Part shown: piece by piece, positions 134 to 12,983 of the stretch | Position numbering within the stretch: the stretch's first letter is position 1 | Layout: each line of letters opens with the position of its first letter | From: Candidatus Bathyarchaeum sp. | GTDB lineage: Archaea; Thermoproteota; Bathyarchaeia; Bathyarchaeales; Bathyarchaeaceae | Length of the DNA stretch: 13,451 nucleotides | NCBI GenBank assembly: GCA_026014495.1 | Contig: JAOZIF010000055.1 | Location: forward strand, 1-13,451 | Direction of reading: 5' to 3' | Notes under the pieces: model-generated | Seen by the model: only the letters and a program-made list of their open reading frames with translations | Told to the model about the DNA's origin: nothing | Databases searched by the model: none | Position numbers and translations under genes: made by a program

Positions 134-1361
134 CGAAGTCAAACAATACACCTACATCGAAAACCAACTACGAAAAAACTTTGAACTATGGAACTACAAC
201 GAAGTCCGCTCACCCACAATAGAATTCGTCGAAACCCTATCCACAGGCGTAGGCTCAGAACTTGTTGACGCCATGTTCAAGTTTCAAGACTTTGACGGCA
301 AACTTTTAGCACTAAGAGCCGAAATGACTGCACCCGTAGCCAGAATCGTAACAACCAGAATGCAGTCCACACCCGAGCCAATCCGTTTATTCTACGTAAA
401 CAACGTTTTCAGATACAGCCAATCATACCTAAAACGAGAACGAGAATTCTGCCAAGCAGGAGTTGAACTTGTCGGATTCAACACCCCTGAGGCTGATGCC
501 GAAATACTAGCGTTACTTGTATCGTCCCTTAGGCAGGTGGGCTTAGATGACGTAAGAATCGACTTAGGTCACGCCAGCCTACTAAAAGACTTGCTAAATG
601 CGGCAGGATTAACTGACCAGCAAAAAACCTCTGTTCAGGGTCTGCTGGCGTGCAGAGACTCTGTGGGGCTAAAAAAGTTCATGGATCAGAACAGTTTTCC
701 ATCAAGCCTCAGAGATGTATTCATTGAGCTTTCCAGTTGTAGACGGTTAAGTGAGGTCTCTTCAGTTTCGTTAAGTGGTTCAAAGTATGATAAAGTAAAC
801 AAGCAGATACAGAGCCTAACCGCGCTTCAGGAGGCATTGAAAGCTTACGGGATGGCCGATGTTGTTTTCTTCGATTTTTCGTTAACAAAAAAGATTGAAT
901 ACTACACTGGAATGGTTTTTGAGGCATCGGTTCCAAATTTGGGTCTTCCAATCGGCAGCGGAGGAAGATACGACAACTTTATCGAAAAATTTGGAAATCT
1001 TAAGTTGCCCTCAATAGGTTTCGCGTTGGAAATCGGGAAACTGCTCCAAGCTCTAACTGCACAGGGCTTTGAAATCCAAAATAACACAAAAACCAAGGTC
1101 ATTGTAACGTCCAAACTAGGAAAAGCTGCAGTAGAAGCGGTTACGGCTCTTCGTGAAGCAGGGGCTATTGCTTCGTTGGAAGTAACAAAAAGAAGCCTCG
1201 AAAAGACAATAGAGTATGGAAAACTAACTGAGGCAGATTACGTTGTTTGTGTCGATTCATCTCTTGATGCGTCAATTACCGTTTATGACATAAAAAATGC
1301 TGCATCACAAACTGTGGAATTCAAAACGTTCCTGCGAACCATCGGGGGTCAATGTAAATGA
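87..1361 (+). CDS. hisZ: ATP phosphoribosyltransferase regulatory subunit (HisRS paralog); true start uncertain
   Basis: The frame is open from 72 and reads TRLHTPKGTRDVLP...EVRSPTIEF (HisS/HisZ N-terminal motifs) well before the first ATG (273). Also LALRAEMTAPVAR, FRY..REFCQAGVELVG, EYYTG and GSGGRYD. Motif 3 reads GFALEIGKL instead of HisRS GFAxGxERL, so the catalytic Arg is lost. Overlaps a short-form hisG by ATGA (1358-1361). Confidence 0.88.
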   Translation, partial: FTRLHTPKGTRDVLPNEVKQYTYIENQLRKNFELWNYNEVRSPTIEFVETLSTGVGSELVDAMFKFQDFDGKLLALRAEMTAPVARIVTTRMQSTPEPIRLFYVNNVFRYSQSYLKREREFCQAGVELVGFNTPEADAEILALLVSSLRQVGLDDVRIDLGHASLLKDLLNAAGLTDQQKTSVQGLLACRDSVGLKKFMDQNSFPSSLRDVFIELSSCRRLSEVSSVSLSGSKYDKVNKQIQSLTALQEALKAYGMADVVFFDFSLTKKIEYYTGMVFEASVPNLGLPIGSGGRYDNFIEKFGNLKLPSIGFALEIGKLLQALTAQGFEIQNNTKTKVIVTSKLGKAAVEAVTALREAGAIASLEVTKRSLEKTIEYGKLTEADYVVCVDSSLDASITVYDIKNAASQTVEFKTFLRTIGGQCK

Positions 1362-1994: not shown

Positions 1995-3290
1995 ATGAGA
2001 ATTGTATCGTCTAAAGACTTCAAAGAAAAAGAGCTTAACTTGCTCCTAAACAGGGGAAAAGCTGACATTTCATCGATTGTTTCTGCAGTCAGACAGATAA
2101 TATGTGATGTTAAAGAAGAAGGCGACTTAGCCCTATTGCGTTACACTGAAAGATTTGATAATGTACGTTTAGCTTCAACAAAGCTGAAGGTTACAAACAA
2201 AGAAATCAAGGACGCATACACGAAGCTGAGCAAAAAACAAATTAGCGCCTTGCAAAAAGCCGCTGATAATATCGCAAGCTTCCACAAAGAACAGCTCAGA
2301 GCCAAATGGACAACGCAACTAGCAGAAGGCGTAACTTTAGGGCAGGTGAGCAGACCCTTAGCTTCTGTTGGAGTTTATGCTCCAGGAGGAAAAGCGTCAT
2401 ACCCTTCTTCTGTACTCATGTGTGCTATCCCCGCAAGGGTGGCTGGGGTTGAAAAGGTAGTTGTTTGTTCTCCTCCTTCAAAGAGTGGAAATGTTAATCC
2501 TGCTCTTTTGGTTGCGGCGGACATTGCTGGTGTGAGCGAGTTTTATCGGGTTGGGGGAGCTCAGGCGATAGCTGCTATGGCGTACGGTACAGGTACTGTA
2601 CAATCTGTTGATAAAATTGTAGGACCAGGAAACGTTTACGTAACCGCCGCAAAGATAGAAGTAAACAGAGACGTTGCAATAGACGTTCCTGCTGGACCAA
2701 GCGAAGTCCTAATAATTGCAGACGAAACTGCCAACGCATCATATATAGCCGCAGACCTTCTTGCCCAAGCAGAACACGACCCACAAGCATGGGCAATTCT
2801 ATTATCAACATCAAAAACTTTAGCGACAAACGTCCAAAATGAAATCAACAACCAGCTTAAAACGCTCTCTAGAATAGACATAATCAACTCTTCCCTGCAA
2901 AAAGGAGGACTGATAGTAACAGTGCAAAACATCAAAGAGGCAACAGAACTATCGAACATGATAGCTCCAGAGCACCTGCAAATACAAACAAAAGCCCCAG
3001 AGGAAGTATTCAGTAATATCAAAAATGCGGGGGCAGTCTTTTTGGGTAGCTACTCGCCAGTATCATTTGGCGACTACTCGTCGGGACTAAATCATGTCCT
3101 ACCCACGGCAGGTTACGCAAAAATTTACTCAGGACTCTCCAGCCTAGACTTTGTTAAAACAATGAATTTTCTGCAGTGCACAAGGGACGGCTATAGTAGC
3201 CTAAAAGAAACTGCAGTAACAGTCGCAGAAATGGAGGGCTTTGATGCCCACGCAAGAGCAGTCTCAATTAGAGAGGAGCAACAAAAATGA
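1995..3290 (+). CDS. hisD: Histidinol dehydrogenase
   Basis: VGVYAPGG, YPSSVLM, GGAQAIAAMAYG, DKIVGPGNVYV, AGPSEVLIIAD, QAEHD, APEHL, GDYSSGLNHVLPT. Start moved from the track's 1926 to ATG 1995, which follows GGAGGT (1981-1986). Confidence 0.97.
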   Translation: MRIVSSKDFKEKELNLLLNRGKADISSIVSAVRQIICDVKEEGDLALLRYTERFDNVRLASTKLKVTNKEIKDAYTKLSKKQISALQKAADNIASFHKEQLRAKWTTQLAEGVTLGQVSRPLASVGVYAPGGKASYPSSVLMCAIPARVAGVEKVVVCSPPSKSGNVNPALLVAADIAGVSEFYRVGGAQAIAAMAYGTGTVQSVDKIVGPGNVYVTAAKIEVNRDVAIDVPAGPSEVLIIADETANASYIAADLLAQAEHDPQAWAILLSTSKTLATNVQNEINNQLKTLSRIDIINSSLQKGGLIVTVQNIKEATELSNMIAPEHLQIQTKAPEEVFSNIKNAGAVFLGSYSPVSFGDYSSGLNHVLPTAGYAKIYSGLSSLDFVKTMNFLQCTRDGYSSLKETAVTVAEMEGFDAHARAVSIREEQQK

Positions 3291-4378
3291 ACATCAAAAA
3301 ACTGGTTCAAAAGGAAGTTCTAGACATTTCATGCTACGAAGTTAAAACCATCCTTGAGCAAAAACCTGACAACCAACTAGTTAAGATGAATCTGAACGAG
3401 AACTTTGCTGTGTCAAGTGAACCTGTCAAAAAACTGTTGCTTGATGCCTGCCAACGCGTTGACGTTCGCGCATATCCTCCACCTCGCGGTAGTTTAGCAG
3501 TTAAGGCTATCTCCGATTTTCTGGGATTGAGCCCATCTGAGGTTGCTGTGGCGAATGGTGCAGACGAAGTCATGGATTTGCTAATGAAAGTGTTTGTCCG
3601 AAAAGGCTCGAAGGTAATGGTTGCTGAGCCAACATTTCCAATGTATACTTTCTTTGCGGAGTTGTATGGGGGCAAGGAAGTCACGGTTATGCTCAAAGAA
3701 GACTTTAGTTTGGATGTTGACGCCATACTCAATAAGGTAGACAAGCAGACGCGACTGCTTTTCGTTTGTTCTCCAAACAATCCCACAGGCAACCAGTTTC
3801 GAGAATCAGACATCAAACGACTCTTGAATGAATTCAAGGGCATAGTGGTTGTAGATGAAGCATACGTGGACTTCGCTTCAGGTTCGGTCATCGACTGGAT
3901 ACCAGATTATGATAACCTTGCAGTATTGCGAAGCTTTTCGAAGGCGTTCGGTTTAGCTGGGCTTCGCCTTGGTTATCTTGTTTCAAGCAAACAAGTCATA
4001 AACTATGTCCAAAGAGTTGTTGGACCATTCAATGTGAATTCTGTGACTCAACAAACCGTCGCTTTGGCTCTGCAGAACTGGAATTACTTCAAAGAACAAT
4101 TAGACCTTGTAGTCAATGAACGGGAATGGCTAATGGAAAACCTAAAGCAAATCGATGGATTGAAACCTTACCCTTCAGACGCCAACTTTATCCTCTTCAA
4201 AGTAACCGCAGCCAATCTCTCCTCTGCAACCTTAACTGAACAACTAGAAAAACGCAATGTGTTAGTAAAAGACAGAGGACAATTGCCTTTGTTAGAAAAT
4301 TGCATACGGGTCACTGTTGGAACCCGAAACATGAACCAAGCCTTCATTTCAGCTCTAAAGGCGTCACTGGAGGAGTAG
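3287..4378 (+). CDS. hisC: Histidinol-phosphate aminotransferase (PLP class I/II)
   Basis: KMNLNEN, NGADE, CSPNNPTG, VVVDEAYVDF, LRSFSKAFGLAGLRLGY (PLP lysine), SDANF, CIRVTVG. ATGA overlap with hisD. Confidence 0.96.
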   Translation: MNIKKLVQKEVLDISCYEVKTILEQKPDNQLVKMNLNENFAVSSEPVKKLLLDACQRVDVRAYPPPRGSLAVKAISDFLGLSPSEVAVANGADEVMDLLMKVFVRKGSKVMVAEPTFPMYTFFAELYGGKEVTVMLKEDFSLDVDAILNKVDKQTRLLFVCSPNNPTGNQFRESDIKRLLNEFKGIVVVDEAYVDFASGSVIDWIPDYDNLAVLRSFSKAFGLAGLRLGYLVSSKQVINYVQRVVGPFNVNSVTQQTVALALQNWNYFKEQLDLVVNEREWLMENLKQIDGLKPYPSDANFILFKVTAANLSSATLTEQLEKRNVLVKDRGQLPLLENCIRVTVGTRNMNQAFISALKASLEE

Positions 4379-4385
4379 AAACTAT

Positions 4386-5582
4386 ATGTCTTACAGGTTG
4401 CTAAACAACGAACGGCAGATATACGTTAGGGCAGGCTCTGAGAAGACTCTTCGTGGGATAAAAAAGCTAATCTTTGATTTCGATGGTGTGCTTGCTCAAA
4501 CTAGCCAGTCATACAGACAGACAATACGAAACGTTGTTGATTACTACTTCTTAGATTTGCTTGGTCTTACAGGAGAAAAAGGAAAGCTAGTGACCTTGCG
4601 AGATATTCAGAAATTCAAGGACACTGGACTGTATAATAACGACTGGAAGCTATCATACGCCCTAATCAATTACTACCTAAGTATTGTGTTGCGAAATCTT
4701 GAACAAAAAAATGTTCTTGAAGAGTTCAAAAAACAGTTTGGTGGCATTCAGTTCTCAAATGTTCAAGAGTTGATTCAGAACCTAACAAAGGTTGGTGACT
4801 TTCTTAGACGATATGGAATCAGCGCAACTGCCCTTTCAAACTTAAAGGACGATAAAATTGTTGGCTTGGACTTGTTTTTAGCGCAAGCAAGCCTTGAGAA
4901 ACAAAAACCGATTGAAACATCTCTTGTAGGTGTTGACCCTGAGGTTGTAGAAGATAAAGAGATGCTAGTTAGATGGTTGATTCCTTATGACCTTGAGAAG
5001 CCTGATTTGTTGAAGCGATTGTTTGAGGAGACGTATCTGGGCAAAGAATTATTCACCAAAATATATGATATGCCCGCTTTTTTCAAGTTTGATTCAAGCC
5101 TTCTGGACATAGAAGAGTTTATTCCAACAAAAAAGACAATGAGCCTGCTTCGTAGCCAGTTTGGCAAATTTGGAATATACTCTGGAAGACCTAGACCCCA
5201 AGGTATGTACATCCTAGAAAAATACAGTTACACAAGATACTTTGACCAAACGCAATCCGTTTTCCTTGGAGACTTGCTCAAATCTGAGGCTGAAATGGAA
5301 AAACTTGGAAAACCCGACCCCACACTATTTGTTGAGTTGATAAAGAAAACTGTTGACCGTGGGGTTGGGGTGGTTTATGTAGGAGACGGCATCGCAGACG
5401 CAATACTTGTTGAGAACGCAAAAGCTATGGGACTTGAAAACCTGTACTTTGTGGGTGTTGTATCATCGTCAGAGGATTCAAATACGCTTTTTACTCAATA
5501 CAGTAAACATGGAGCTGACGCAGTAGTAACTGACGTGAATGATATTCCATACCTGTTTACAAGTTTGGGAGGAACTCTTTGA
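4386..5582 (+). CDS. HAD-superfamily phosphatase with large cap; candidate histidinol-phosphate phosphatase
   Basis: Motif I FDFDG (D31/D33), motif II YSGR (S266), motif III KPDP (K309), motif IV GDGIAD (D334/D338). Embedded between hisC and hisB with 7-nt and 1-nt gaps. The HAD call is strong; the substrate is inferred from context. Confidence 0.85.
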   Translation: MSYRLLNNERQIYVRAGSEKTLRGIKKLIFDFDGVLAQTSQSYRQTIRNVVDYYFLDLLGLTGEKGKLVTLRDIQKFKDTGLYNNDWKLSYALINYYLSIVLRNLEQKNVLEEFKKQFGGIQFSNVQELIQNLTKVGDFLRRYGISATALSNLKDDKIVGLDLFLAQASLEKQKPIETSLVGVDPEVVEDKEMLVRWLIPYDLEKPDLLKRLFEETYLGKELFTKIYDMPAFFKFDSSLLDIEEFIPTKKTMSLLRSQFGKFGIYSGRPRPQGMYILEKYSYTRYFDQTQSVFLGDLLKSEAEMEKLGKPDPTLFVELIKKTVDRGVGVVYVGDGIADAILVENAKAMGLENLYFVGVVSSSEDSNTLFTQYSKHGADAVVTDVNDIPYLFTSLGGTL

Positions 5583-5583
5583 G

Positions 5584-6162
5584 ATGAGAAAAGTAAATGC
5601 TAAAAGAAAAACCAAAGAAGTAGACATAACCTTGGAGCTAGACGTCGATGGAAAAGGAAACGCAGATGTCAAAACAGGCATCAAGTTTTTGGATCACATG
5701 CTATTGACGCTAGCTAAGCATGGACTATTTGACTTGAATGTCAAAGCAACGGGAGACCTAACGCATCACATAAGCGAAGATGTAGCTTTGGTGCTGGGCG
5801 AGGCACTAAACAAGGCAACAAACAAGGGCAAAGGCATCAAACGGTTCGGTTCTGCATATGTTCCTATGGATGAGTCCTTAGCAAGAGCTACAGTAGACCT
5901 AGGCGGAAGACCATACTGTATACTAAACCTTAGAATCATGCAAACCCAAATTGAAGATCTGAAAACCGAGGACATAGAGCACTTCTTTGAGTCGCTAGCT
6001 CAAGCCGCCAAAGCCAACATCCATGTAACTGTTTTGTATGGTAGTAACGAGCACCACAAAGTAGAGGCTGCGGTAAAGGCGTTAGCGCTTGCTTTGAGGC
6101 AGGCATTCACAGTTGAGCCAAGAATCGGAGATCAGGTTCCAAGCGCAAAGGGGGTTCTTTAG
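5584..6162 (+). CDS. hisB: Imidazoleglycerol-phosphate dehydratase (monofunctional)
   Basis: RKTKEVDI, FLDHML, HHISED, PMDESLA, NEHHKVEAAVKA. No N-terminal phosphatase domain. Start moved from 5539 to ATG 5584, after GGAGG (5568-5572). Confidence 0.96.
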   Translation: MRKVNAKRKTKEVDITLELDVDGKGNADVKTGIKFLDHMLLTLAKHGLFDLNVKATGDLTHHISEDVALVLGEALNKATNKGKGIKRFGSAYVPMDESLARATVDLGGRPYCILNLRIMQTQIEDLKTEDIEHFFESLAQAAKANIHVTVLYGSNEHHKVEAAVKALALALRQAFTVEPRIGDQVPSAKGVL

Positions 6163-6173
6163 CAATACCTCAA

Positions 6174-6773
6174 GTGGCAGTTGTGAACTATGGCGTGGGA
6201 AACCTAAGAAGCATCCGCAAAGGGCTTGAAAAGTCGGGAGCCACGGTCCAAGTTACACATAACCCAGCAGATTTACGCGGGTCTGATGCCATTGTTCTTC
6301 CGGGTGTTGGAGCGTTTGCTCCTGCAGTTAAGAACATGGAGCCAATAGCTGATGTTGTAGCGCAGGCAATGAAGAGCGGCAAGCCAATTCTTGGGGTCTG
6401 TTTGGGGCTTCAGCTTCTTTTCACAAAAAGTAGTGAAGGCGGTTCAGTTAAAGGACTAGATTTCATCTCTGGTGAGGTCGTTAAGTTGCCTGATTCTGTG
6501 AAGACGCCTCAGATGGGATGGAACACCATAAACTTTGCGCGGTCTCACCCGTTGCTTGATGGCGTTAAAGAAGGTTCTTACGTGTATTTTGTTCACTCAT
6601 ATTATCCTCAGCCCGCAGACCCAACTGTTGTAGTGACAACCACAGATTATGGGGTTAAGTTTGCGTCAATGGTTGCGAAAAAGAATCTTTTTGCAACTCA
6701 GTTTCACCCTGAGAAAAGCAGCAAAACAGGATTAATTATGCTGAAAAATTTTGTGAACATAGTGAAGAGGTGA
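6174..6773 (+). CDS. hisH: Imidazole glycerol phosphate synthase, glutamine amidotransferase subunit (GTG start; alternative ATA start at 6165)
   Basis: NYGVGNLRS, LPGVGAF, GVCLGLQLL (catalytic Cys), PQMGWN, YFVHSY, QFHPEKS (His/Glu of the triad). Confidence 0.97.
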   Translation: MAVVNYGVGNLRSIRKGLEKSGATVQVTHNPADLRGSDAIVLPGVGAFAPAVKNMEPIADVVAQAMKSGKPILGVCLGLQLLFTKSSEGGSVKGLDFISGEVVKLPDSVKTPQMGWNTINFARSHPLLDGVKEGSYVYFVHSYYPQPADPTVVVTTTDYGVKFASMVAKKNLFATQFHPEKSSKTGLIMLKNFVNIVKR

Positions 6774-6779
6774 TTTAGA

Positions 6780-7502
6780 ATGATTGTTATTCCTGCTGTG
6801 GACATTTTGGGCGGAAAGTGTGTTCGGCTTTTTCGTGGAGACCCAAATAAAAACAAGGTTTACTATGAGGACCCACTGGAGGCGGCTCAGATTCTGGAAC
6901 ATGACGGGGCGGAGCTTATTCATGTGGTTGATTTGGATGCTGCGTTAGGGTCTGGGCAGAACACAGACGCAATAAAGCGAATTGTAGAAAACGTGAAAGT
7001 TAAGGTTGAGGTTGGCGGCGGAATACGGAGCTTAGAGAAGGCGGATGAGCTTTTGAAGCTTGGTGTTTATCGTGTAATTTTTGGGACTGCTGCAGTAAAA
7101 AATCCCGGTTTGGTCAAAGAGGCGGTGAAAGTTTACGGTTCAGAGCATGTTGTTGTGGGTATTGACGAGAAGGATGGAAAAGTTGCAGTTCACGGCTGGA
7201 CAAACAAGTCTGAGTTGGGTTACTTGGAGTTTGCCAAAACTTTTGACCGTATAGGCGTTGGTGCCTTGATTTTTACTCCAATTAGTGTGGATGGAACATT
7301 GGAAGGACCGCAAACAGAAAAAACAAAGCAATTAGTAGAGTCTGTTAGTGTTCCGGTTGTTGCGTCTGGGGGCGTTGCTAGGATTGAGGATTTGGTTGCG
7401 TTAACAAAAACTGGGGCTGCGGGAGTTGTTGTTGGGACTGCAATTTATGAAAAAAAGTTTACTGTAAAACAAGCGTTGGAGGCTGTTAAAAATGTTAGCT
7501 AA
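6780..7502 (+). CDS. hisA: ProFAR isomerase
   Basis: [47 protein letters not shown] at 6767-6773. Confidence 0.96.
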
Positions 7503-8301
7503 ACGAATAATTCCCTGTCTTGATGTTATGAATGGTCAGGTAGTAAAGGGTGTTCAGTTCGTAAACCTGAAGGTGGAAGGTGACCCCGCTGAGCTTGCCG
7601 CAGACTATGAAGAGCAGGGCGCTGATGAGGTGGTTTTTTTGGATATAACTGCCTCTCACGAGAAGCGGGACACAACATTAGAGGTTGTAAAGCGGACTGC
7701 GGACACGATTTCTATTCCTTTTACGGTTGGTGGTGGCATCAGAAATATCACTGACATACAAAATGCCCTTTCTAGTGGCGCGGACAAGGTTTCTGTGAAC
7801 ACTGCAGCGGTGAATAATCCAAAGCTTGTGGAGGCGTCTGCTTCTATTTTTGGTAGCCAGTGTATTGTTGTTGCTATAGATGCGAAGCGCGTTTACGTGG
7901 ACGATTATGTTTCAGACAAAACTGTTGTGGAAACGTGTAATGGTAAGTGCTGGTGGGAAGTTTACCTAATGGGCGGAAGACAACCCACAGGAATAGACGC
8001 CTTAGCGTGGGCAAAGCAGGTTAAAGAGTTGGGCGCTGGAGAGCTTTTGCCGACTAGCATGGACTGTGATGGGGTTCAGACAGGCTACGACCTAGAGTTA
8101 ACGCGGGAGATGAGTAAGGCTACGAATCTTCCAGTTATTGCGAGTGGTGGTGCGGGTAACTTGGAGCACATTTTTGATGTGTTGACTGTGGGTGAGGCGG
8201 ATGCTGCTTTGGCTGCGTCTATTTTTCATAGGGGTCAGTATTCTGTGGGAGAAGTTAAGAGGTACCTCTCAGAAAAAGGAGTGCCGATGCGTCTGGTTTA
8301 A
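7492..8301 (+). CDS. hisF: Imidazole glycerol phosphate synthase, cyclase subunit
   Basis: [61 protein letters not shown]. Overlaps hisA by 11 nt. Confidence 0.98.
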
Positions 8302-8316
8302 AGTGGAGGATGAAAA

Positions 8317-8988
8317 ATGAAGCTTAGCACAAAAGAGATTGACGATTTCGTGGCGAAAGTCAATTTTGAGAAAGGAGACGGTCTTGTTCCTGTTGTTGTT
8401 CAAGACGCGTCAACTGATAGTGTGTTGATGCAGGCTTACATGAACAAAGAAGCTTTGCGTTTGACTTTGTCTAGTGGCAGGATGCATTACTGGAGCCGAA
8501 CAAAGGGCAGAATCTGGATGAAAGGCGAAGAATCCAAGCACTACTCTTTGGTTGAGAACGCGTTTTTGGATTGTGACAATGACGCGATACTGTTTAAGGC
8601 TCAGCAGGTAGGTGTGGTTTGTCACACTGGAGAGGAAACGTGCTTCTACAAGCCCTTAAAACCAGAAGAAAATGTAAAGGTTGATGCTCGGATGCTTGAG
8701 AGGCTCTTTGAGGTTATTCATGAGCGTATTCGTAGTCCCAGCGAGGAGTCGTATGTTTCGCGTTTAACCGCTAAAGGCGAGGATGCTGTGCTTCAAAAGG
8801 TCGGCGAAGAGGCAACTGAGCTTATTTTGGCAGTAAAATCTGGTGACCCTAAAGAGGCTACGTTAGAAGCTGCTGACGTAATCTTTCATATACTGGTTTC
8901 GTTTGCGCAAAAAGGTTACAGCCTCAACAGCATATTTGAGGAGCTGGATAGCCGTCACAAGAAAAAGACAAAAAATGTGCAATCTTGA
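8317..8988 (+). CDS. hisIE: Bifunctional phosphoribosyl-AMP cyclohydrolase / phosphoribosyl-ATP pyrophosphohydrolase
   Basis: HisI part: GLVPVVVQD, WSRTK..WMKGEES, DCDND, CHTGEETCF. HisE part: SYVSRL, KVGEEATE, EAADVIFH. RBS GGAGG at 8305-8309. Confidence 0.96.
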   Translation: MKLSTKEIDDFVAKVNFEKGDGLVPVVVQDASTDSVLMQAYMNKEALRLTLSSGRMHYWSRTKGRIWMKGEESKHYSLVENAFLDCDNDAILFKAQQVGVVCHTGEETCFYKPLKPEENVKVDARMLERLFEVIHERIRSPSEESYVSRLTAKGEDAVLQKVGEEATELILAVKSGDPKEATLEAADVIFHILVSFAQKGYSLNSIFEELDSRHKKKTKNVQS

Positions 8989-10079: not shown

Positions 10080-10104
10080 TAATTGTAAACTAAATGGTGT
10101 GTAT

Positions 10105-10147
10105 TGTTTGTTGGTTAGTTAATTGTTTTTCTTTTTGTTGATTTTGC
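10105..10147 (+). terminator. T-rich tract, probable archaeal intrinsic terminator after the prenyltransferase gene
   Basis: TTGTTTTTCTTTTTGTTGATTTTG within ~70 nt of the stop at 10079. Oligo-T termination is established in archaea. Confidence 0.45.
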
Positions 10148-10347
10148 CATTTTAATTTATTCTTAGGGATTTTGAATTAAATATGTTTGACAGATAGAAC
10201 TTGATGGAAGAGGAGAGAGGAATGAAACTGAATTTAACACTTTCATAAGAGTTTTCAAATCAACTTGTCAAATTTGAACCAATTTATCACTATTTTAAAA
10301 AAAGTTAAATCAAGAAAGAATAATTAGAATTGTAAGAGCTGATTTAA

Positions 10348-11064
10348 ATGACATCAACAAACCTCACCGAAGAAGAAAAAAAAAAACACATTTCTGTTGA
10401 TGAATATGAATTAGGAAAAATTCTAGTTTTTGTCAGCTATTCTAATGATGACAAAATCCTCGCTGGACGAATTAAACTAATATTAGAAGGATATGGTTTG
10501 TCAGTTTTTCTGGCTCATGATGACATACCACCTCTTTGTGATTGGCAAATGGAAATAAGTAAAAACCTGAAAAAATGTGATGTTTTTTTGCCCATATTGA
10601 CACACAGTTTTTGTGAATCAGAATGGTGTGACCAAGAAACTGGAATGGCTTTTGCGTTGGATAAGTTGATTGTACCCTTGAAGGTTGATATAGCACCATA
10701 CGGGTTCATTAACAAAATCCAAGCATGTAAATTGGATGTAGATAGACCCAAACGTACTTGTCATAAAATTATCGAAGTTTTAAAAGCTAATCAATTTTCT
10801 GACCGTTTATTTGATTGTTTACTCCGAGACTTAGAATCCGCTCCCACTTTTGATTATGCAAACAAAACACTAGAACAAATAAGTGAATATGAAAAAATCA
10901 ATAAAAAACAAATTAACCAGATTATTCGAATAGCAATAAGGAATAATCAATTTCGTCTATCTCGCAAAGGAATACCTTTTCTTGCGTCAATAACAAAGAA
11001 TCATTCCTCAAAAATAAACCCATTTTTACTTAAGGCATACAACAAAGTTAAAGACGACTTCTAG
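10348..11064 (+). CDS. TIR-domain protein (TIR_2-like, putative NADase/signalling) with C-terminal helical domain
   Basis: VFVSYSNDD, VFLAHDDI, W..EI...L..CD.F.PILT..F..SEWC.QE (catalytic-position Glu97), IVPL. Confidence 0.88.
   Translation: MTSTNLTEEEKKKHISVDEYELGKILVFVSYSNDDKILAGRIKLILEGYGLSVFLAHDDIPPLCDWQMEISKNLKKCDVFLPILTHSFCESEWCDQETGMAFALDKLIVPLKVDIAPYGFINKIQACKLDVDRPKRTCHKIIEVLKANQFSDRLFDCLLRDLESAPTFDYANKTLEQISEYEKINKKQINQIIRIAIRNNQFRLSRKGIPFLASITKNHSSKINPFLLKAYNKVKDDF
10376..10386 (+). repeat. A11 homopolymer near the 5' end of the TIR gene
   Basis: Eleven consecutive A, the longest homopolymer I found in the window, in frame as E-K-K-K. Confidence 0.9.
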
Positions 11065-11085
11065 TTCTGAGGGGGTGAAAAGATA

Positions 11086-11319
11086 ATGGTTTTTGTTAAT
11101 GAAAACGGCGAGGAAATGTCAAGAAAAAATGCAATTGAAACAAAAAATGGTCTCGTAGTTTACACAGATGGTGAAGGACACTGGTATCTTCAATATCCAG
11201 AGGATAAAACAGGAAGAATTGATTGTAACGACTTTGAATTCATCAGTTTTATGGTAGCACTAACACTCAACAAAGGCAACATAGATGAAGCTCATGAGAA
11301 AGTATGGGGAGATAGCTAA
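11086..11319 (+). CDS. Small acidic hypothetical protein (77 aa), probably co-transcribed with the TIR gene
   Basis: Strong RBS GGGGGTGA about 8 nt upstream; 21 nt after the TIR stop; 15 D/E versus 7 K/R. No family recognised. Confidence 0.7.
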   Translation: MVFVNENGEEMSRKNAIETKNGLVVYTDGEGHWYLQYPEDKTGRIDCNDFEFISFMVALTLNKGNIDEAHEKVWGDS

Positions 11320-11322
11320 TTG

Positions 11323-11338
11323 AACCCTAAAAAGGGTT
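11323..11338. terminator. Small perfect hairpin between convergent genes
   Basis: AACCCT-AAAA-AGGGTT in the 24-nt gap between the stops at 11319 (+) and 11344 (-). Confidence 0.4.
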
Positions 11339-11343
11339 AGTGA

Positions 11344-11967
11344 TTATTCTGTTTTCTTTTCTTCCAATTTTGGAGTTGAGGGTAAAACTGTGAAAGCAAG
11401 AATCAACAATAATATGGCCACAATGGTAAAAAGTAAAGGAACGAAAAGAAACCCAAAAGTTGCCCATGTGTCTGTAGGGTCATATTGAGAATTTCTAGCA
11501 ATATATGCCATAGAACTAAAGATTGAGAAAATTAAACAAAAAAATGTTGAAACTGCAACTAGCGACAGTGAATTTTGTCTAAGAGTGAGATATTTCAAAG
11601 ATTCTGCTCTGTTATTTGCTTCCTCAGGATTTTCAAATAATTTTTCGTAAAGTGCAGTTTGTTGACTCATTACTGAAGAAAGCATTTGAGCAAAGATAAT
11701 ACCTACAAACCCTAAGAGAATTCCATTGGTTTGAATCATAATCTCAAGCAAAGAATCTGCTGTGGAAATTGGTACATAATCTGGAAAAGCATCTATAAGA
11801 GAAAATGAAAAATAAAAAACAGAACCTACTGCAACAAAAGACGAAACAAAATAAAACAAGAATCTTTTGACAAGGTTCCACTTATCACTCTGGGTTAAGG
11901 GTTTCACAGAATAAGAAGTGGTAAAAGTTGTTGAAACTTTTTCAGTTTTTCCTTCATTTTCTGCCAT
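11344..11967 (-). CDS. Hypothetical integral membrane protein, about 4 TM helices (207 aa)
   Basis: Four hydrophobic segments: FLFYFVSSFVAVGSVFYFSFSLI; ILLGFVGIIFAQMLSSVM; LSLVAVSTFFCLIFSIFSSMAYIA; FGFLFVPLLFTIVAILLLILAFTVL. Charged termini. No competing ORF on the other strand in the track. Confidence 0.8.
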   Translation of the reverse strand: MAENEGKTEKVSTTFTTSYSVKPLTQSDKWNLVKRFLFYFVSSFVAVGSVFYFSFSLIDAFPDYVPISTADSLLEIMIQTNGILLGFVGIIFAQMLSSVMSQQTALYEKLFENPEEANNRAESLKYLTLRQNSLSLVAVSTFFCLIFSIFSSMAYIARNSQYDPTDTWATFGFLFVPLLFTIVAILLLILAFTVLPSTPKLEEKKTE

Positions 11968-12106
11968 TTGAATCCATTTACACCGTTACATCAATTTTGT
12001 TTTTAAAACTTTCTTGTATTCTTACACTATTATAACGGGTCGCCTATTTCAAGTGCTAAAATTGTTTTAGTTAACTTTTATTAGATAATCAAAAATAGAA
12101 TAAACT
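11968..12106. promoter_or_regulatory. Divergent promoter region with candidate TATA boxes and an inverted repeat
   Basis: TTTTAAAA (12001-12008) for the minus gene; TTTTATTA (12077-12084), 22 nt before ATG 12107 (leaderless spacing); CTAAAA-TTG-TTTTAG (12056-12070). The region is AT-rich, so chance matches are possible. Confidence 0.35.
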
Positions 12107-12757
12107 ATGCGATGGTTTGCTGAACATCCGAAATTATCGATACTGATTCAAACGGCAAGAGAACAGGATGTTTTACCTCGAATTCCAAAAATTGTAATCA
12201 TTGAATTAACTTCTGAGGAAATTGAAAAAATAAACGAAATAACTAGAAAAAAAGTTGATGAATTAGGGGGAGCAGAAAATGTCTCACAATTGAAAAGTAT
12301 TGGAGCATCTGATTCACATAAGGGCAAATTTATTGGATTACATCCGGACAAAGCAGGTATTCTAATGTCTACACCATCAAAACGACTCAAGAAGAAAGGC
12401 TACATTAATCCAATTTTTGAAGGAATCGAACAAATATTTCCCGATAAAAAATTGCAGAAACAATTGGATAAATGTAATTACGCTATTGCATTAACGGGTA
12501 ATTTATTAGAATGGTATGGAAAAAAGTATCCCGTTTTCCTTGGAAATGAAGGCATATCCCCAGACAAATATACAACAGGATTTTGCTGGGTTTTAATCCA
12601 TGAATTTGTTCACATAATTGAAATAGAAAATAAAAAGCCAGTCTTTGACAATTTACCAGATAATAAACGTGGAGCAGAAAGAATATTCAGTAATTATCTT
12701 CCTTATGAGTACTGGACAAAAATTGAACCAATTGATTGCAGTGCGAATACACAGTAA
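12107..12757 (+). CDS. Hypothetical protein with HExxH zincin-like metallopeptidase motif (216 aa)
   Basis: WVLIHEFVHIIE (HEFVH codons at 12599-12613) in a hydrophobic helix context. Subfamily not recognised. Confidence 0.7.
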   Translation: MRWFAEHPKLSILIQTAREQDVLPRIPKIVIIELTSEEIEKINEITRKKVDELGGAENVSQLKSIGASDSHKGKFIGLHPDKAGILMSTPSKRLKKKGYINPIFEGIEQIFPDKKLQKQLDKCNYAIALTGNLLEWYGKKYPVFLGNEGISPDKYTTGFCWVLIHEFVHIIEIENKKPVFDNLPDNKRGAERIFSNYLPYEYWTKIEPIDCSANTQ

Positions 12758-12841
12758 AAACTCTAAAAAGTTATTAGTAAAAAATCTAGGTGTACACATA
12801 GGTAGTTGTATACTAATAGCAGTTCATTGTTGAAAACTAAC

Positions 12842-12859
12842 TTTTTTTCTGATTTTTTT
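12842..12859 (+). terminator. Double T7 tract, probable terminator after the HExxH gene
   Basis: TTTTTTT-CTGA-TTTTTTT about 85 nt downstream of the stop at 12757. Confidence 0.4.
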
Positions 12860-12924
12860 GCACTGCACAAGTTTGGTAATTAAAGTTCATACTTACATTA
12901 ATCTGAAACGTAGAGTCCGACTGC

Positions 12925-12940
12925 TTAAGCTTTATATCTA
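12925..12940 (+). promoter_or_regulatory. TATA-box promoter of ileS
   Basis: TTAAGC-TTTATATC (TATA at 12931-12938), 45 nt upstream of the GTG start; same core as the his promoter. Confidence 0.55.
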
Positions 12941-12983
12941 TGGTTGGTCATTCAAGGGTTTAATCTGGTGTCGTGGATGAGCG

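What the first reader, a model, noticed from the sequence alone, without database searches (positions are those of the whole stretch)
4386..5582. Large-cap HAD phosphatase is the likely missing histidinol-phosphate phosphatase
Seen: every other pathway step has a gene in the operon, HisB is monofunctional, and this is the only unassigned gene, wedged between hisC and hisB. All four HAD motifs are intact, with about 230 residues between motifs I and II. Established: HolPase activity has evolved repeatedly (HAD, PHP and IMPase families) and is unassigned in many archaea; a smaller HAD-type HolPase has been described in Thermococcus. From memory, FDFDGV....SYR..I..V and G.YNNDW resemble the uncharacterised TIGR01548 HAD clade; this needs an HMM check. 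Inference: a 398-aa, extended-cap HolPase subfamily whose cap insertion (~aa 90-250) may add regulation or docking to HisC/HisB.
Basis: partly seen in the sequence, partly recalled or inferred. Interest (0 to 1): 0.7.

Follow-up and report, generated by a model that had tools for sequence, protein, structure and literature searches.

The report
Archaeal histidinol-phosphate phosphatase, known family
The unassigned gene between hisC and hisB in this Bathyarchaeia histidine operon is very probably the pathway's phosphatase, but its enzyme family was shown to do this job in Nitrosopumilus in 2024, so it is a divergent new member, not a new enzyme type.

Summary
Observation confirmed. Positions 4386-5582 encode a 398-aa HAD hydrolase with all four catalytic motifs and 232 residues between motifs I and II. 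It sits between hisC and a dehydratase-only hisB in a complete his operon.

The HolPase reading is well supported but not new. The protein aligns end to end with Nitrosopumilus orthologues of nmHisN, the hisC-hisB-embedded HAD enzyme assayed as a specific HolPase by Kinateder et al. 2024 (PMC10804674).

The "large-cap subfamily" is the family norm: median cap 214 residues, with Nitrosopumilus (175) the short outlier. TIGR01548 is the nearest curated model, but the protein scores 71.8 bits against a cut-off of 140.2. No evidence was obtained for docking to HisC or HisB.

New here:
- The gene belongs to a deep, well-supported clade that is entirely his-embedded and separate from the assayed clade.
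- It carries Arg44 where nmHisN has the kinetically important Asp25; that position varies widely among operon-embedded orthologues.
- In a 151-genome class sample, 38 of 38 genomes with both this family and IGPD have them adjacent.

The scan reached the same verdict earlier on other genomes.

The parts
4386..5582 (+). HAD-superfamily gene (398 aa, P0001): probable archaeal-type histidinol-phosphate phosphatase (HisN, nmHisN/toHisN family, clade A)
   Evidence: ORF and translation. Pfam HAD above cut-off. Aligns end to end with the Nitrosopumilus hisC-hisB HAD. AF2 model pLDDT 91.7.
4369..4375 (+). GGAGGAG Shine-Dalgarno-like site inside the end of hisC, 10 nt before the HAD ATG
   Evidence: Sequence read directly.
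4473..4490 (+). HAD motif I (F30-D31-F-D33-G-V35): D31 nucleophile, D33 general acid/base
   Evidence: D31, D33 and G34 are invariant in 50 homologues. The roles come from established HAD chemistry.
4503..5126 (+). Single all-helical cap (residues ~40-247, about ten helices) inserted right after motif I
   Evidence: AF2 secondary structure, helices 40-58 through 208-227.
4512..4517 (+). Y43-R44, equivalent to fingerprint residues Y24-D25 of nmHisN (Asp replaced by Arg)
   Evidence: Alignment to Nitrosopumilus orthologues. Fingerprint taken from PMC10804674.
4617..4643 (+). K78...N84-N-D86-W87, equivalent to fingerprint K56 and E64 of nmHisN (E to D, as in toHisN)
   Evidence: G81, N84, D86 and W87 are at least 85-90% conserved family-wide.
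4707..4985 (+). Variable part of the cap (residues 108-200), which includes the ~50-75 residues absent from the Nitrosopumilus enzyme
   Evidence: Alignment gaps. Lowest conservation: identity 0.10 and gap fraction 0.36 among distant relatives. pLDDT dips to ~60 at 171-190.
5181..5183 (+). HAD motif II Ser266
   Evidence: The column is S or T in 129 of 135 representatives.
5310..5312 (+). HAD motif III Lys309
   Evidence: Invariant.
5385..5399 (+). HAD motif IV D334-G-I-A-D338 (Mg2+ ligands)
   Evidence: D338 invariant, D334 at least 90%.
3287..4378 (+). hisC (histidinol-phosphate aminotransferase), which makes the proposed substrate
   Evidence: Pfam Aminotran_1_2, E 3e-62.
5584..6162 (+). 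hisB, imidazoleglycerol-phosphate dehydratase only (no phosphatase domain); probable start at 5584
   Evidence: Pfam IGPD and NCBIfam HisB models matching from residue 15-16 of the longer frame. Sequence read directly.

Best explanation
The gene encodes a Mg2+-dependent HAD phosphatase that carries out step 8 of histidine biosynthesis, L-histidinol phosphate to L-histidinol plus phosphate. It belongs to the archaeal nmHisN/toHisN family. Inferred mechanism, from standard HAD chemistry: Asp31 attacks the phosphate to form an aspartyl-phosphate intermediate. Asp33 protonates the leaving histidinol oxygen and then activates water. Ser266 and Lys309 hold the phosphate, and Asp334/Asp338 together with Asp31 bind Mg2+. 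The single helical cap closes over the site and supplies the specificity residues. These are Tyr43, Lys78 and Asp86 (equivalents of nmHisN Y24, K56, E64), plus the family-invariant Asn84, Trp87, Glu215 and Glu243. The gene is translationally coupled to hisC upstream and hisB downstream. Shown here: family membership, fold, motif integrity, operon slot, phyletic linkage. Inferred: the substrate and the role of each residue.
For: (1) Complete his operon with this as the only unassigned gene and a dehydratase-only hisB. (2) Full-length alignment (26-27% identity) to Nitrosopumilus and Nitrosarchaeum proteins that occupy the same hisC-hisB slot. The N. maritimus enzyme of that slot was assayed: kcat/KM 1.1e4 M-1 s-1 on HolP and no activity on nine other phosphoesters (PMC10804674). 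(3) Five of six fingerprint or accessory positions are kept or conservatively replaced: Y43, I47, I74, K78, D86. (4) In a 151-genome sample of the class, 38 of the 43 genomes with this family also have IGPD. In all 38 the HAD gene lies directly upstream of IGPD on the same strand. All 15 sampled clade A members sit directly upstream of hisB, preceded by hisC or hisD where the contig reaches that far. (5) The confident AF2 model (pLDDT 91.7, pTM 0.88) shows a Rossmann core plus one helical cap, as described for nmHisN and toHisN. The family profile hits Thermococcus phosphatase Tt82 (6IAH) at E 4e-28. (6) The genome's other candidates miss every HolPase model cut-off: two PHP proteins (HisJ 23-27 bits against 90.2) and one IMPase (HisN 72 bits against 275; best match is archaeal FBPase/IMPase).
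Against: No assay exists for this protein or for any Arg-bearing member. Arg44 replaces Asp25, whose Ala mutant loses about 220-fold in kcat/KM in nmHisN, and the authors themselves called Arg-type clusters less reliably HolPases. Identity to the assayed type is only about 27%, and the gene lies in a separate deep clade. The family contains copies unlinked to his genes and duplicates in family f18, so not every member need be a HolPase. The genome is 93% complete, so a HolPase on unassembled DNA cannot be excluded. The fingerprint mapping assumes a one-residue indel relative to the published numbering, because the N. maritimus sequence itself was not retrieved.
Confidence: 0.85

Rival explanations
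1. The HAD protein is a phosphatase with a different main substrate that merely travels with the his operon. The real HolPase would be one of the genome's PHP-family or IMPase-family proteins, or a gene on unassembled DNA.
For: Arg44 replaces a kinetically important Asp. 47 of 85 IGPD-positive genomes in the class lack this family altogether, and in them hisC abuts hisB, so another HolPase type must exist in the class. The genome has two PHP proteins and one IMPase.
Against: Those three proteins miss all HolPase model cut-offs and none of the three genes lies in the his operon, all of whose genes are in the window. Adjacency of HAD and IGPD is 38 of 38. Position 2 of the fingerprint varies (D, N, R, L, T, E, Y, G) among copies that all sit in the slot, so Arg there does not mark a functional switch.
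Confidence: 0.08
2. The enzyme is a HolPase whose enlarged cap additionally docks onto HisC or HisB, or senses a regulator.
For: The gene is tightly coupled to both neighbours. Earlier notes of this scan report HisC::HAD fusions in other lineages (not verified here). Residues 161-190 are well conserved among close relatives (0.84-0.90).
Against: Residues 108-200 are the least conserved and most gapped region family-wide. nmHisN was reported to be a monomer. No fused forms longer than 698 aa were found for this protein.
Confidence: 0.05
3. The protein is a catalytically dead HAD-fold protein kept for a structural role.
For: None specific.
Against: All four catalytic motifs are intact and invariant across the family. 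Close relatives keep strong conservation at the active-site segments.
Confidence: 0.02

Closest known systems
nmHisN (Nmar_1556), HAD-type histidinol-phosphate phosphatase of Nitrosopumilus maritimus (Kinateder et al. 2024, PMC10804674)
   Same: Same superfamily and the same family by full-length alignment. Same operon slot between hisC and hisB. One large all-helical cap inserted after motif I. Equivalents of Y24, I28, I52 and K56 are kept.
   Different: About 27% identity, and a separate deep clade (100/100 support). Asp25 is replaced by Arg44, and Glu64 by Asp86. The cap is 232 residues rather than ~175, and the protein is 398 aa rather than ~322. The protein itself has not been assayed.
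toHisN (Thermococcus onnurineus HolPase, Lee et al. 2008 as cited in PMC10804674) and its solved relative Tt82 of T. thioreducens (PDB 6IAH)
   Same: Homologous: profile E 4e-28 to 6IAH. Shares the S-Y motif after motif I and Asp at the E64 position.
   Different: Tt82 is 240 aa with a much smaller cap (seven helices reported for toHisN). Its fingerprint is Y-D-R-D, against Y-R-K-D here.
TIGR01548 (HAD-SF-IA-hyp1), NCBIfam hypothetical equivalog
   Same: It is the best-scoring curated model for this protein and for both clades of the family, including the Nitrosopumilus type (55-83 bits).
   Different: Every sequence tested scores far below the 140.2-bit cut-off. The model is 197 positions long and has no room for the large cap.
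PDB 1QYI, Staphylococcus aureus Q8NW41, structural-genomics protein of unknown function
   Same: Best structural match (Foldseek TM 0.62/0.65) and a full-length profile match (E 9e-23, residues 28-394 against 2-376). It is the only solved structure among those matched that covers the large cap.
   Different: It is bacterial, its fingerprint positions read F-D-K-N, and its function is unknown.
HisB-N of E. coli (HAD), PHP-type HisK/HisJ, IMPase-type HisN
   Same: They catalyse the same reaction. HisB-N shares the HAD core chemistry.
   Different: HisB-N has unrelated, tiny caps (TIGR01656 scores 19.9 bits against 84.15). The PHP and IMPase types have different folds.

Membership tests
HAD superfamily | Four motifs: DxD, S/T, K, and (G)DxxxD | tested here: met
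   D31/D33, S266, K309 and D334/D338 are invariant or nearly so in homologues. PF00702 and PF13419 score above cut-off.
HAD superfamily | Rossmann-like core with a cap inserted after motif I (C1 type) | tested here: met
   AF2 model, pLDDT 91.7, with helices 40-227 between the core strands. HAD structures dominate the Foldseek hits.
nmHisN/toHisN archaeal HolPase family | Full-length sequence homology to the assayed enzymes or their close orthologues | tested here: met
   Aligns end to end with the Nitrosopumilus and Nitrosarchaeum hisC-hisB HAD proteins. The family HMM scores them at E 1e-73 to 1e-75 and 6IAH (Tt82) at E 4e-28.
nmHisN/toHisN archaeal HolPase family | Gene embedded in the his cluster next to hisB | tested here: met
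   Window layout. Adjacency in 38 of 38 genomes across the class.
nmHisN/toHisN archaeal HolPase family | Fingerprint Y24-D25-K56-E64, or the toHisN variant Y-D-R-D | tested here: not met
   The protein reads Y43-R44-K78-D86. Three positions are kept or conservative, but Asp25 is Arg. The same Y-R-K-D type is described for the paper's unassayed cluster II. The numbering map assumes a one-residue loop indel.
nmHisN/toHisN archaeal HolPase family | Specific Mg2+-dependent hydrolysis of L-histidinol phosphate | not testable with these tools
   This needs an enzyme assay or complementation.
TIGR01548 (HAD-SF-IA-hyp1) | Score at or above the curated cut-off of 140.2 bits | tested here: not met
   71.8 bits. 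Ten other family members score 54.5-83.3 bits.
HisB-N type HolPase (TIGR01656 domain) | Score at or above 84.15 bits | tested here: not met
   19.9 bits, covering the motif III-IV region only.

The most novel reading that the evidence does not exclude
Clade A, the window's clade (34 of 182 sampled sequences), is an old, separate lineage of his-operon HolPases. It recognises histidinol phosphate without the Asp25 that matters in nmHisN, and clade-specific acidic residues (Asp207 100%, Asp79 85%, Asp73 88%) may take over that role. If so, the published Y-D-K-E fingerprint rule is too narrow. Related families of one order would then carry HolPases from two deep clades, or none, in the same hisC-hisB slot, which points to repeated in-place replacement.
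Probability: 0.4. Interest if true: 0.4.

Novelty: new member of a known kind. Interest (0 to 1): 0.27.

Why it matters
It supports a sound annotation. Public records call these proteins "hypothetical", "HAD family hydrolase" or "phosphoglycolate phosphatase-like", and none of the Pfam or NCBIfam models scanned here names them. Naming them closes the last gap in the histidine pathway of this Bathyarchaeia lineage.

The more useful by-product is comparative. Operon context argues that Arg-, Asn-, Leu- and Tyr-bearing variants at the Asp25 position are isofunctional. That can be tested, and it would widen the fingerprint used for annotation.

In contrast, about half of the his-competent Bathyarchaeia sampled lack this family, so their HolPase is still unknown.

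Tried and rejected
- **Complex prediction of HisC with the HAD protein** (alignments A3 and A1): score 0.00, and the tool's verdict was "no answer". This is not evidence for or against binding.
- **Search for fused forms longer than 698 aa**: none found, which the tool itself calls weak evidence.
- **A 534-aa open frame in L024 that looked like a HisC-HAD fusion**: rejected. hisC and the HAD gene are in different frames, and the extension is a high-GC open-frame artefact.
- **TIGR01548 membership**: rejected on score.
- **PHP and IMPase proteins of the genome as rival HolPases**: they match nucleoside-bisphosphate phosphatase/RNase RNM, CehA/McbA and FBPase/IMPase models better and miss every HolPase cut-off.
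- **Retrieving the N. maritimus SCM1 protein to verify the published numbering**: it was not named among 120 Nitrosopumilus-type hits. Their Y-to-K and Y-to-E spacings are 33 and 41, against 32 and 40 in the paper, so a one-residue loop indel is assumed.
- **The paper's supplementary files** are not held, so I could not check whether clade A sequences were in its similarity network.
- **Euryarchaeal cluster II sequences** could not be fetched, so the relation of clade A to that cluster is untested.
- **Model coordinates** are not exported, so distances from R44, D79 and D207 to the active site could not be measured.

Full report
**What is there.** The window carries a compact, single-strand histidine operon: hisZ (273-1361), hisG, hisD, hisC (3287-4378), an unassigned gene (4386-5582), hisB, hisH, hisA, hisF and hisIE (8317-8988). 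All were identified by Pfam with E-values from 1e-18 to 1e-169. hisB is imidazoleglycerol-phosphate dehydratase only.

The unassigned gene encodes a 398-aa protein (P0001). It passes the Pfam HAD models (PF00702 36.6 bits, PF13419 34.3 bits). It has an intact DxD (D31/D33), S266, K309 and D334/D338, and 232 residues lie between motifs I and II.

The gene is tightly coupled to its neighbours. A GGAGGAG lies 10 nt before its ATG, inside the end of hisC. Its TGA (5580-5582) is followed one base later by an ATG at 5584, which is preceded by GGAGG (5568-5572). That ATG is where the IGPD family models start to match, so 5584 is a better hisB start than the listed 5539.

**Organism.** The closest named relative (81% identity) is from a Candidatus Bathyarchaeum MAG. 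The related genomic loci are Bathyarchaeota/Bathyarchaeia and Nitrososphaerota. The window's assembly is 2.19 Mb in 196 contigs and 93% complete.

**What the literature already says.** Kinateder et al. 2024 (Protein Sci 33:e4899, PMC10804674) followed up the uncharacterised hydrolase gene between hisC and hisB in Thaumarchaeota.
- They purified Nmar_1556 from Nitrosopumilus maritimus and showed it is a Mg2+-dependent HolPase (kcat 0.79 s-1, KM 73 uM) with no activity on nine other phosphoesters. They named it nmHisN.
- They described one large cap of nine helices, against seven in the smaller Thermococcus enzyme toHisN.
- They defined a fingerprint Y24-D25-K56-E64, with accessory residues I28 and I52. 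K56A, Y24A, D25A and E64A each lower kcat/KM by more than 200-fold.
- Their similarity network had a cluster I of Thaumarchaeota plus Bathyarchaeota, and a euryarchaeal cluster II with Arg at the D25 position. They rated cluster II as likely, but less reliably, HolPases.

No later archaeal work turned up.

**Is this gene a member of that family?** Yes by homology, fold and context, and partly by fingerprint.
- Nitrosopumilus and Nitrosarchaeum genomes carry a 322-323-aa HAD gene in the same slot. It aligns with P0001 from end to end at 26-27% identity.
- A profile built from 50 diverse relatives scores those proteins at E 1e-73 to 1e-75. It scores the solved Thermococcus thioreducens phosphatase Tt82 (6IAH) at E 4e-28.
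- The AF2 model is confident (pLDDT 91.7, pTM 0.88). It shows a short N-terminal hairpin, the Rossmann core, and one all-helical cap of about ten helices spanning residues ~40-227.
- Mapping the fingerprint through the Nitrosopumilus orthologues gives Y43, R44, K78 and D86, with accessories I47 and I74. The E-to-D change also occurs in assayed toHisN. The D-to-R change is the real difference.
- The mapping assumes a one-residue loop indel between the published numbering and the 120 Nitrosopumilus-type sequences I could fetch, because the N. maritimus protein itself was not identified among them.

**The large cap is not special.** An exhaustive search found 340 cluster representatives at E <= 1e-10. 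Among the 135 full-length ones, length has a median of 376 aa and the motif I-II distance has a median of 214 residues (range 130-241). The window's 232 is near the upper end, and the Nitrosopumilus enzyme (175) is the short outlier.

The part that is extra relative to Nitrosopumilus lies within residues 108-200. It is the least conserved and most gapped region of the protein: identity 0.10 and gap fraction 0.36 among distant relatives, against 0.26-0.48 identity elsewhere. The family-wide conserved cap residues all lie in the parts shared with nmHisN: S42, Y43, G81, N84, D86, W87, F213, E215, G219 and E243. This pattern fits a variable structural decoration, not a conserved docking module.

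The best structural match is 1QYI, an uncharacterised 380-aa Staphylococcus aureus protein (TM 0.62/0.65). It is also a full-length profile match (E 9e-23), but it reads F-D-K-N at the fingerprint positions.

**TIGR01548.** It is the top NCBIfam hit (71.8 bits) but far below its cut-off of 140.2. Ten other members from both clades, including the Nitrosopumilus orthologue (76.3 bits), score 54.5-83.3. It is therefore the nearest curated model for the whole family, and none of the Pfam or NCBIfam models scanned names the family. Public records label these proteins hypothetical, HAD family hydrolase or phosphoglycolate phosphatase-like.

**Linkage to histidine biosynthesis.** I sampled 151 genomes of the class.
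- 43 have the family at E <= 1e-10 and 85 have IGPD.
- 38 have both, and in all 38 the HAD match lies directly upstream of the IGPD match on the same contig and strand. This count comes from my cross-tabulation of the coordinates.
- Of 49 copies with readable flanks, 42 sit directly upstream of hisB. In 34 of these hisC is upstream, in 5 hisD, and in 3 the contig ends.
- Five genomes, all in one family (f18), have the HAD without a detected IGPD. The two I examined, L068 and L069, have no his genes within about 5 kb. One f18 operon carries a second paralogue after hisI.

**Phylogeny.** An IQ-TREE analysis of 48 copies splits them into two clades with 100/100 support and a long internal branch.
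- Clade A (15 rows) contains the window's gene and members of five Bathyarchaeia families. Every member sits directly upstream of hisB in a his operon, and the fingerprints are x-R-K-D, F-Y-K-D or Y-L-K-D.
- Clade B contains the Nitrososphaerota (Y-D-K-E), other Bathyarchaeia (Y-D-R-D, Y-N-R-D and others), and the three copies not placed just upstream of hisB (two unlinked, one after hisI).

With the global representatives added, clade A is 34 of 182 sequences (support 0.999). Arg at position 2 also occurs in 41 clade B sequences.

Position 2 is plastic even among operon-embedded copies: D, N, R, L, T, E, Y and G all occur. Within the window's own genus one orthologue has Leu. So Arg44 is unlikely to mark a change of function. 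More likely the D25 requirement is specific to the Nitrosopumilus background. Clade A has its own conserved acidic residues (D207 100%, D73 88%, D79 85%) that might compensate.

**Other HolPase candidates in the genome.** There are two PHP-domain proteins (contigs C12 and C167) and one IMPase-family protein (C106).
- The PHP proteins best match nucleoside-bisphosphate phosphatase/RNase RNM and CehA/McbA models. They score 23-27 bits on the HisJ family model (cut-off 90.2).
- The IMPase best matches the archaeal FBPase/IMPase model (228 bits). It scores 72 bits on HisN (cut-off 275).
- None of these genes is near a his gene. No HisB-N type domain reaches its cut-off.

**A caution from relatives.** 47 IGPD-positive genomes in the class lack this family. 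In a same-order example (L061) the operon is otherwise the same, but hisC abuts hisB. A lenient search of five such genomes found only generic HAD-core matches. A different, still unidentified HolPase therefore exists in the class. This keeps a small probability on the rival that such an enzyme also serves here.

**Docking idea.** A controlled complex prediction of HisC with the HAD protein returned no answer, so it counts neither way. No fused forms longer than 698 aa were found, and an apparent fusion frame in L024 is an artefact. nmHisN is reported to be a monomer. Earlier notes of this scan mention HisC::HAD fusions in other lineages. I did not verify them, and they concern other members of the family.

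**Verdict.** The gene is very probably (about 0.85) the operon's histidinol-phosphate phosphatase, working by the standard HAD aspartyl-phosphate mechanism under a helical specificity cap. It is a divergent member of a family whose function was established in 2024, so it is a new member of a known kind. Earlier follow-ups in this scan reached the same verdict on similar genes in other genomes.

What is modestly new: clade A is separate from the assayed clade and is entirely his-embedded, the Asp25 fingerprint position is not conserved among operon-embedded orthologues, and about half of the his-competent Bathyarchaeia sampled lack the family.

Noticed in passing
window 5539-5586: The listed hisB ORF starts at ATG 5539 and overlaps the HAD gene by 44 nt. 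An in-frame ATG at 5584, with GGAGG at 5568-5572, coincides with where the IGPD models begin to match. It is the more likely start, one base after the HAD stop.
   Followed up: partly
window 273-1361: The hisZ ORF from ATG 273 matches the tRNA-synt_His profile only from position 54 of 308, so about 50 N-terminal residues seem to lack a canonical start.
   Followed up: no
window 10080-12950: GC drops from about 0.45 to 0.31-0.36 right after the polyprenyl synthase gene. The low-GC stretch holds a TIR-domain gene (10348-11064; weak Thoeris ThcB4 and retron-TIR hits), a minus-strand ORF (11344-11967; weak Brp/Blh-like hit) and an ORF with no NCBIfam match (12107-12757), before the ileS 5' end.
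   Followed up: no
L067 (G092 C29) 3051-4172 and 7354-8526, minus strand: In Bathyarchaeia family f18 the his operon carries two paralogues of this HAD family. One lies between hisC and hisB (Y-G-K-D). The second lies directly after a hisI that lacks the hisE half (Y-P-K-D). Sister genomes have copies with no his genes nearby (L068, L069).
   Followed up: partly
L061 (G038 C8) 5125-6763; also L062-L066, L070: 47 of 85 IGPD-positive genomes in the class sample lack this HAD family. In a same-order genome that is 100% complete, hisC abuts hisB directly and no family member is found elsewhere. The HolPase of these lineages is still unassigned.
   Followed up: partly
G038, G088, G144 (whole genomes): PRA-PH (HisE, PF01503) was not detected in three genomes, including the 100%-complete G038, whose operon has hisI only. 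Two sister genomes gave only marginal hits (22-23 bits). HisE may be divergent or replaced in these lineages.
   Followed up: partly
PDB 1QYI (Staphylococcus aureus Q8NW41): This structural-genomics protein of unknown function is a full-length homologue of the large-cap family (profile E 9e-23, TM 0.62/0.65). It reads F-D-K-N at the HolPase fingerprint positions, so it is a bacterial relative with a probably different substrate.
   Followed up: partly
tree; loci L032-L036, L045 versus L037, L040, L041, L047: Families of the same order carry HAD genes from the two deep clades in the same hisC-hisB slot (f3 has clade B; f1 and f4 have clade A), and family f2 has none. This suggests replacement or loss in place.
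   Followed up: partly
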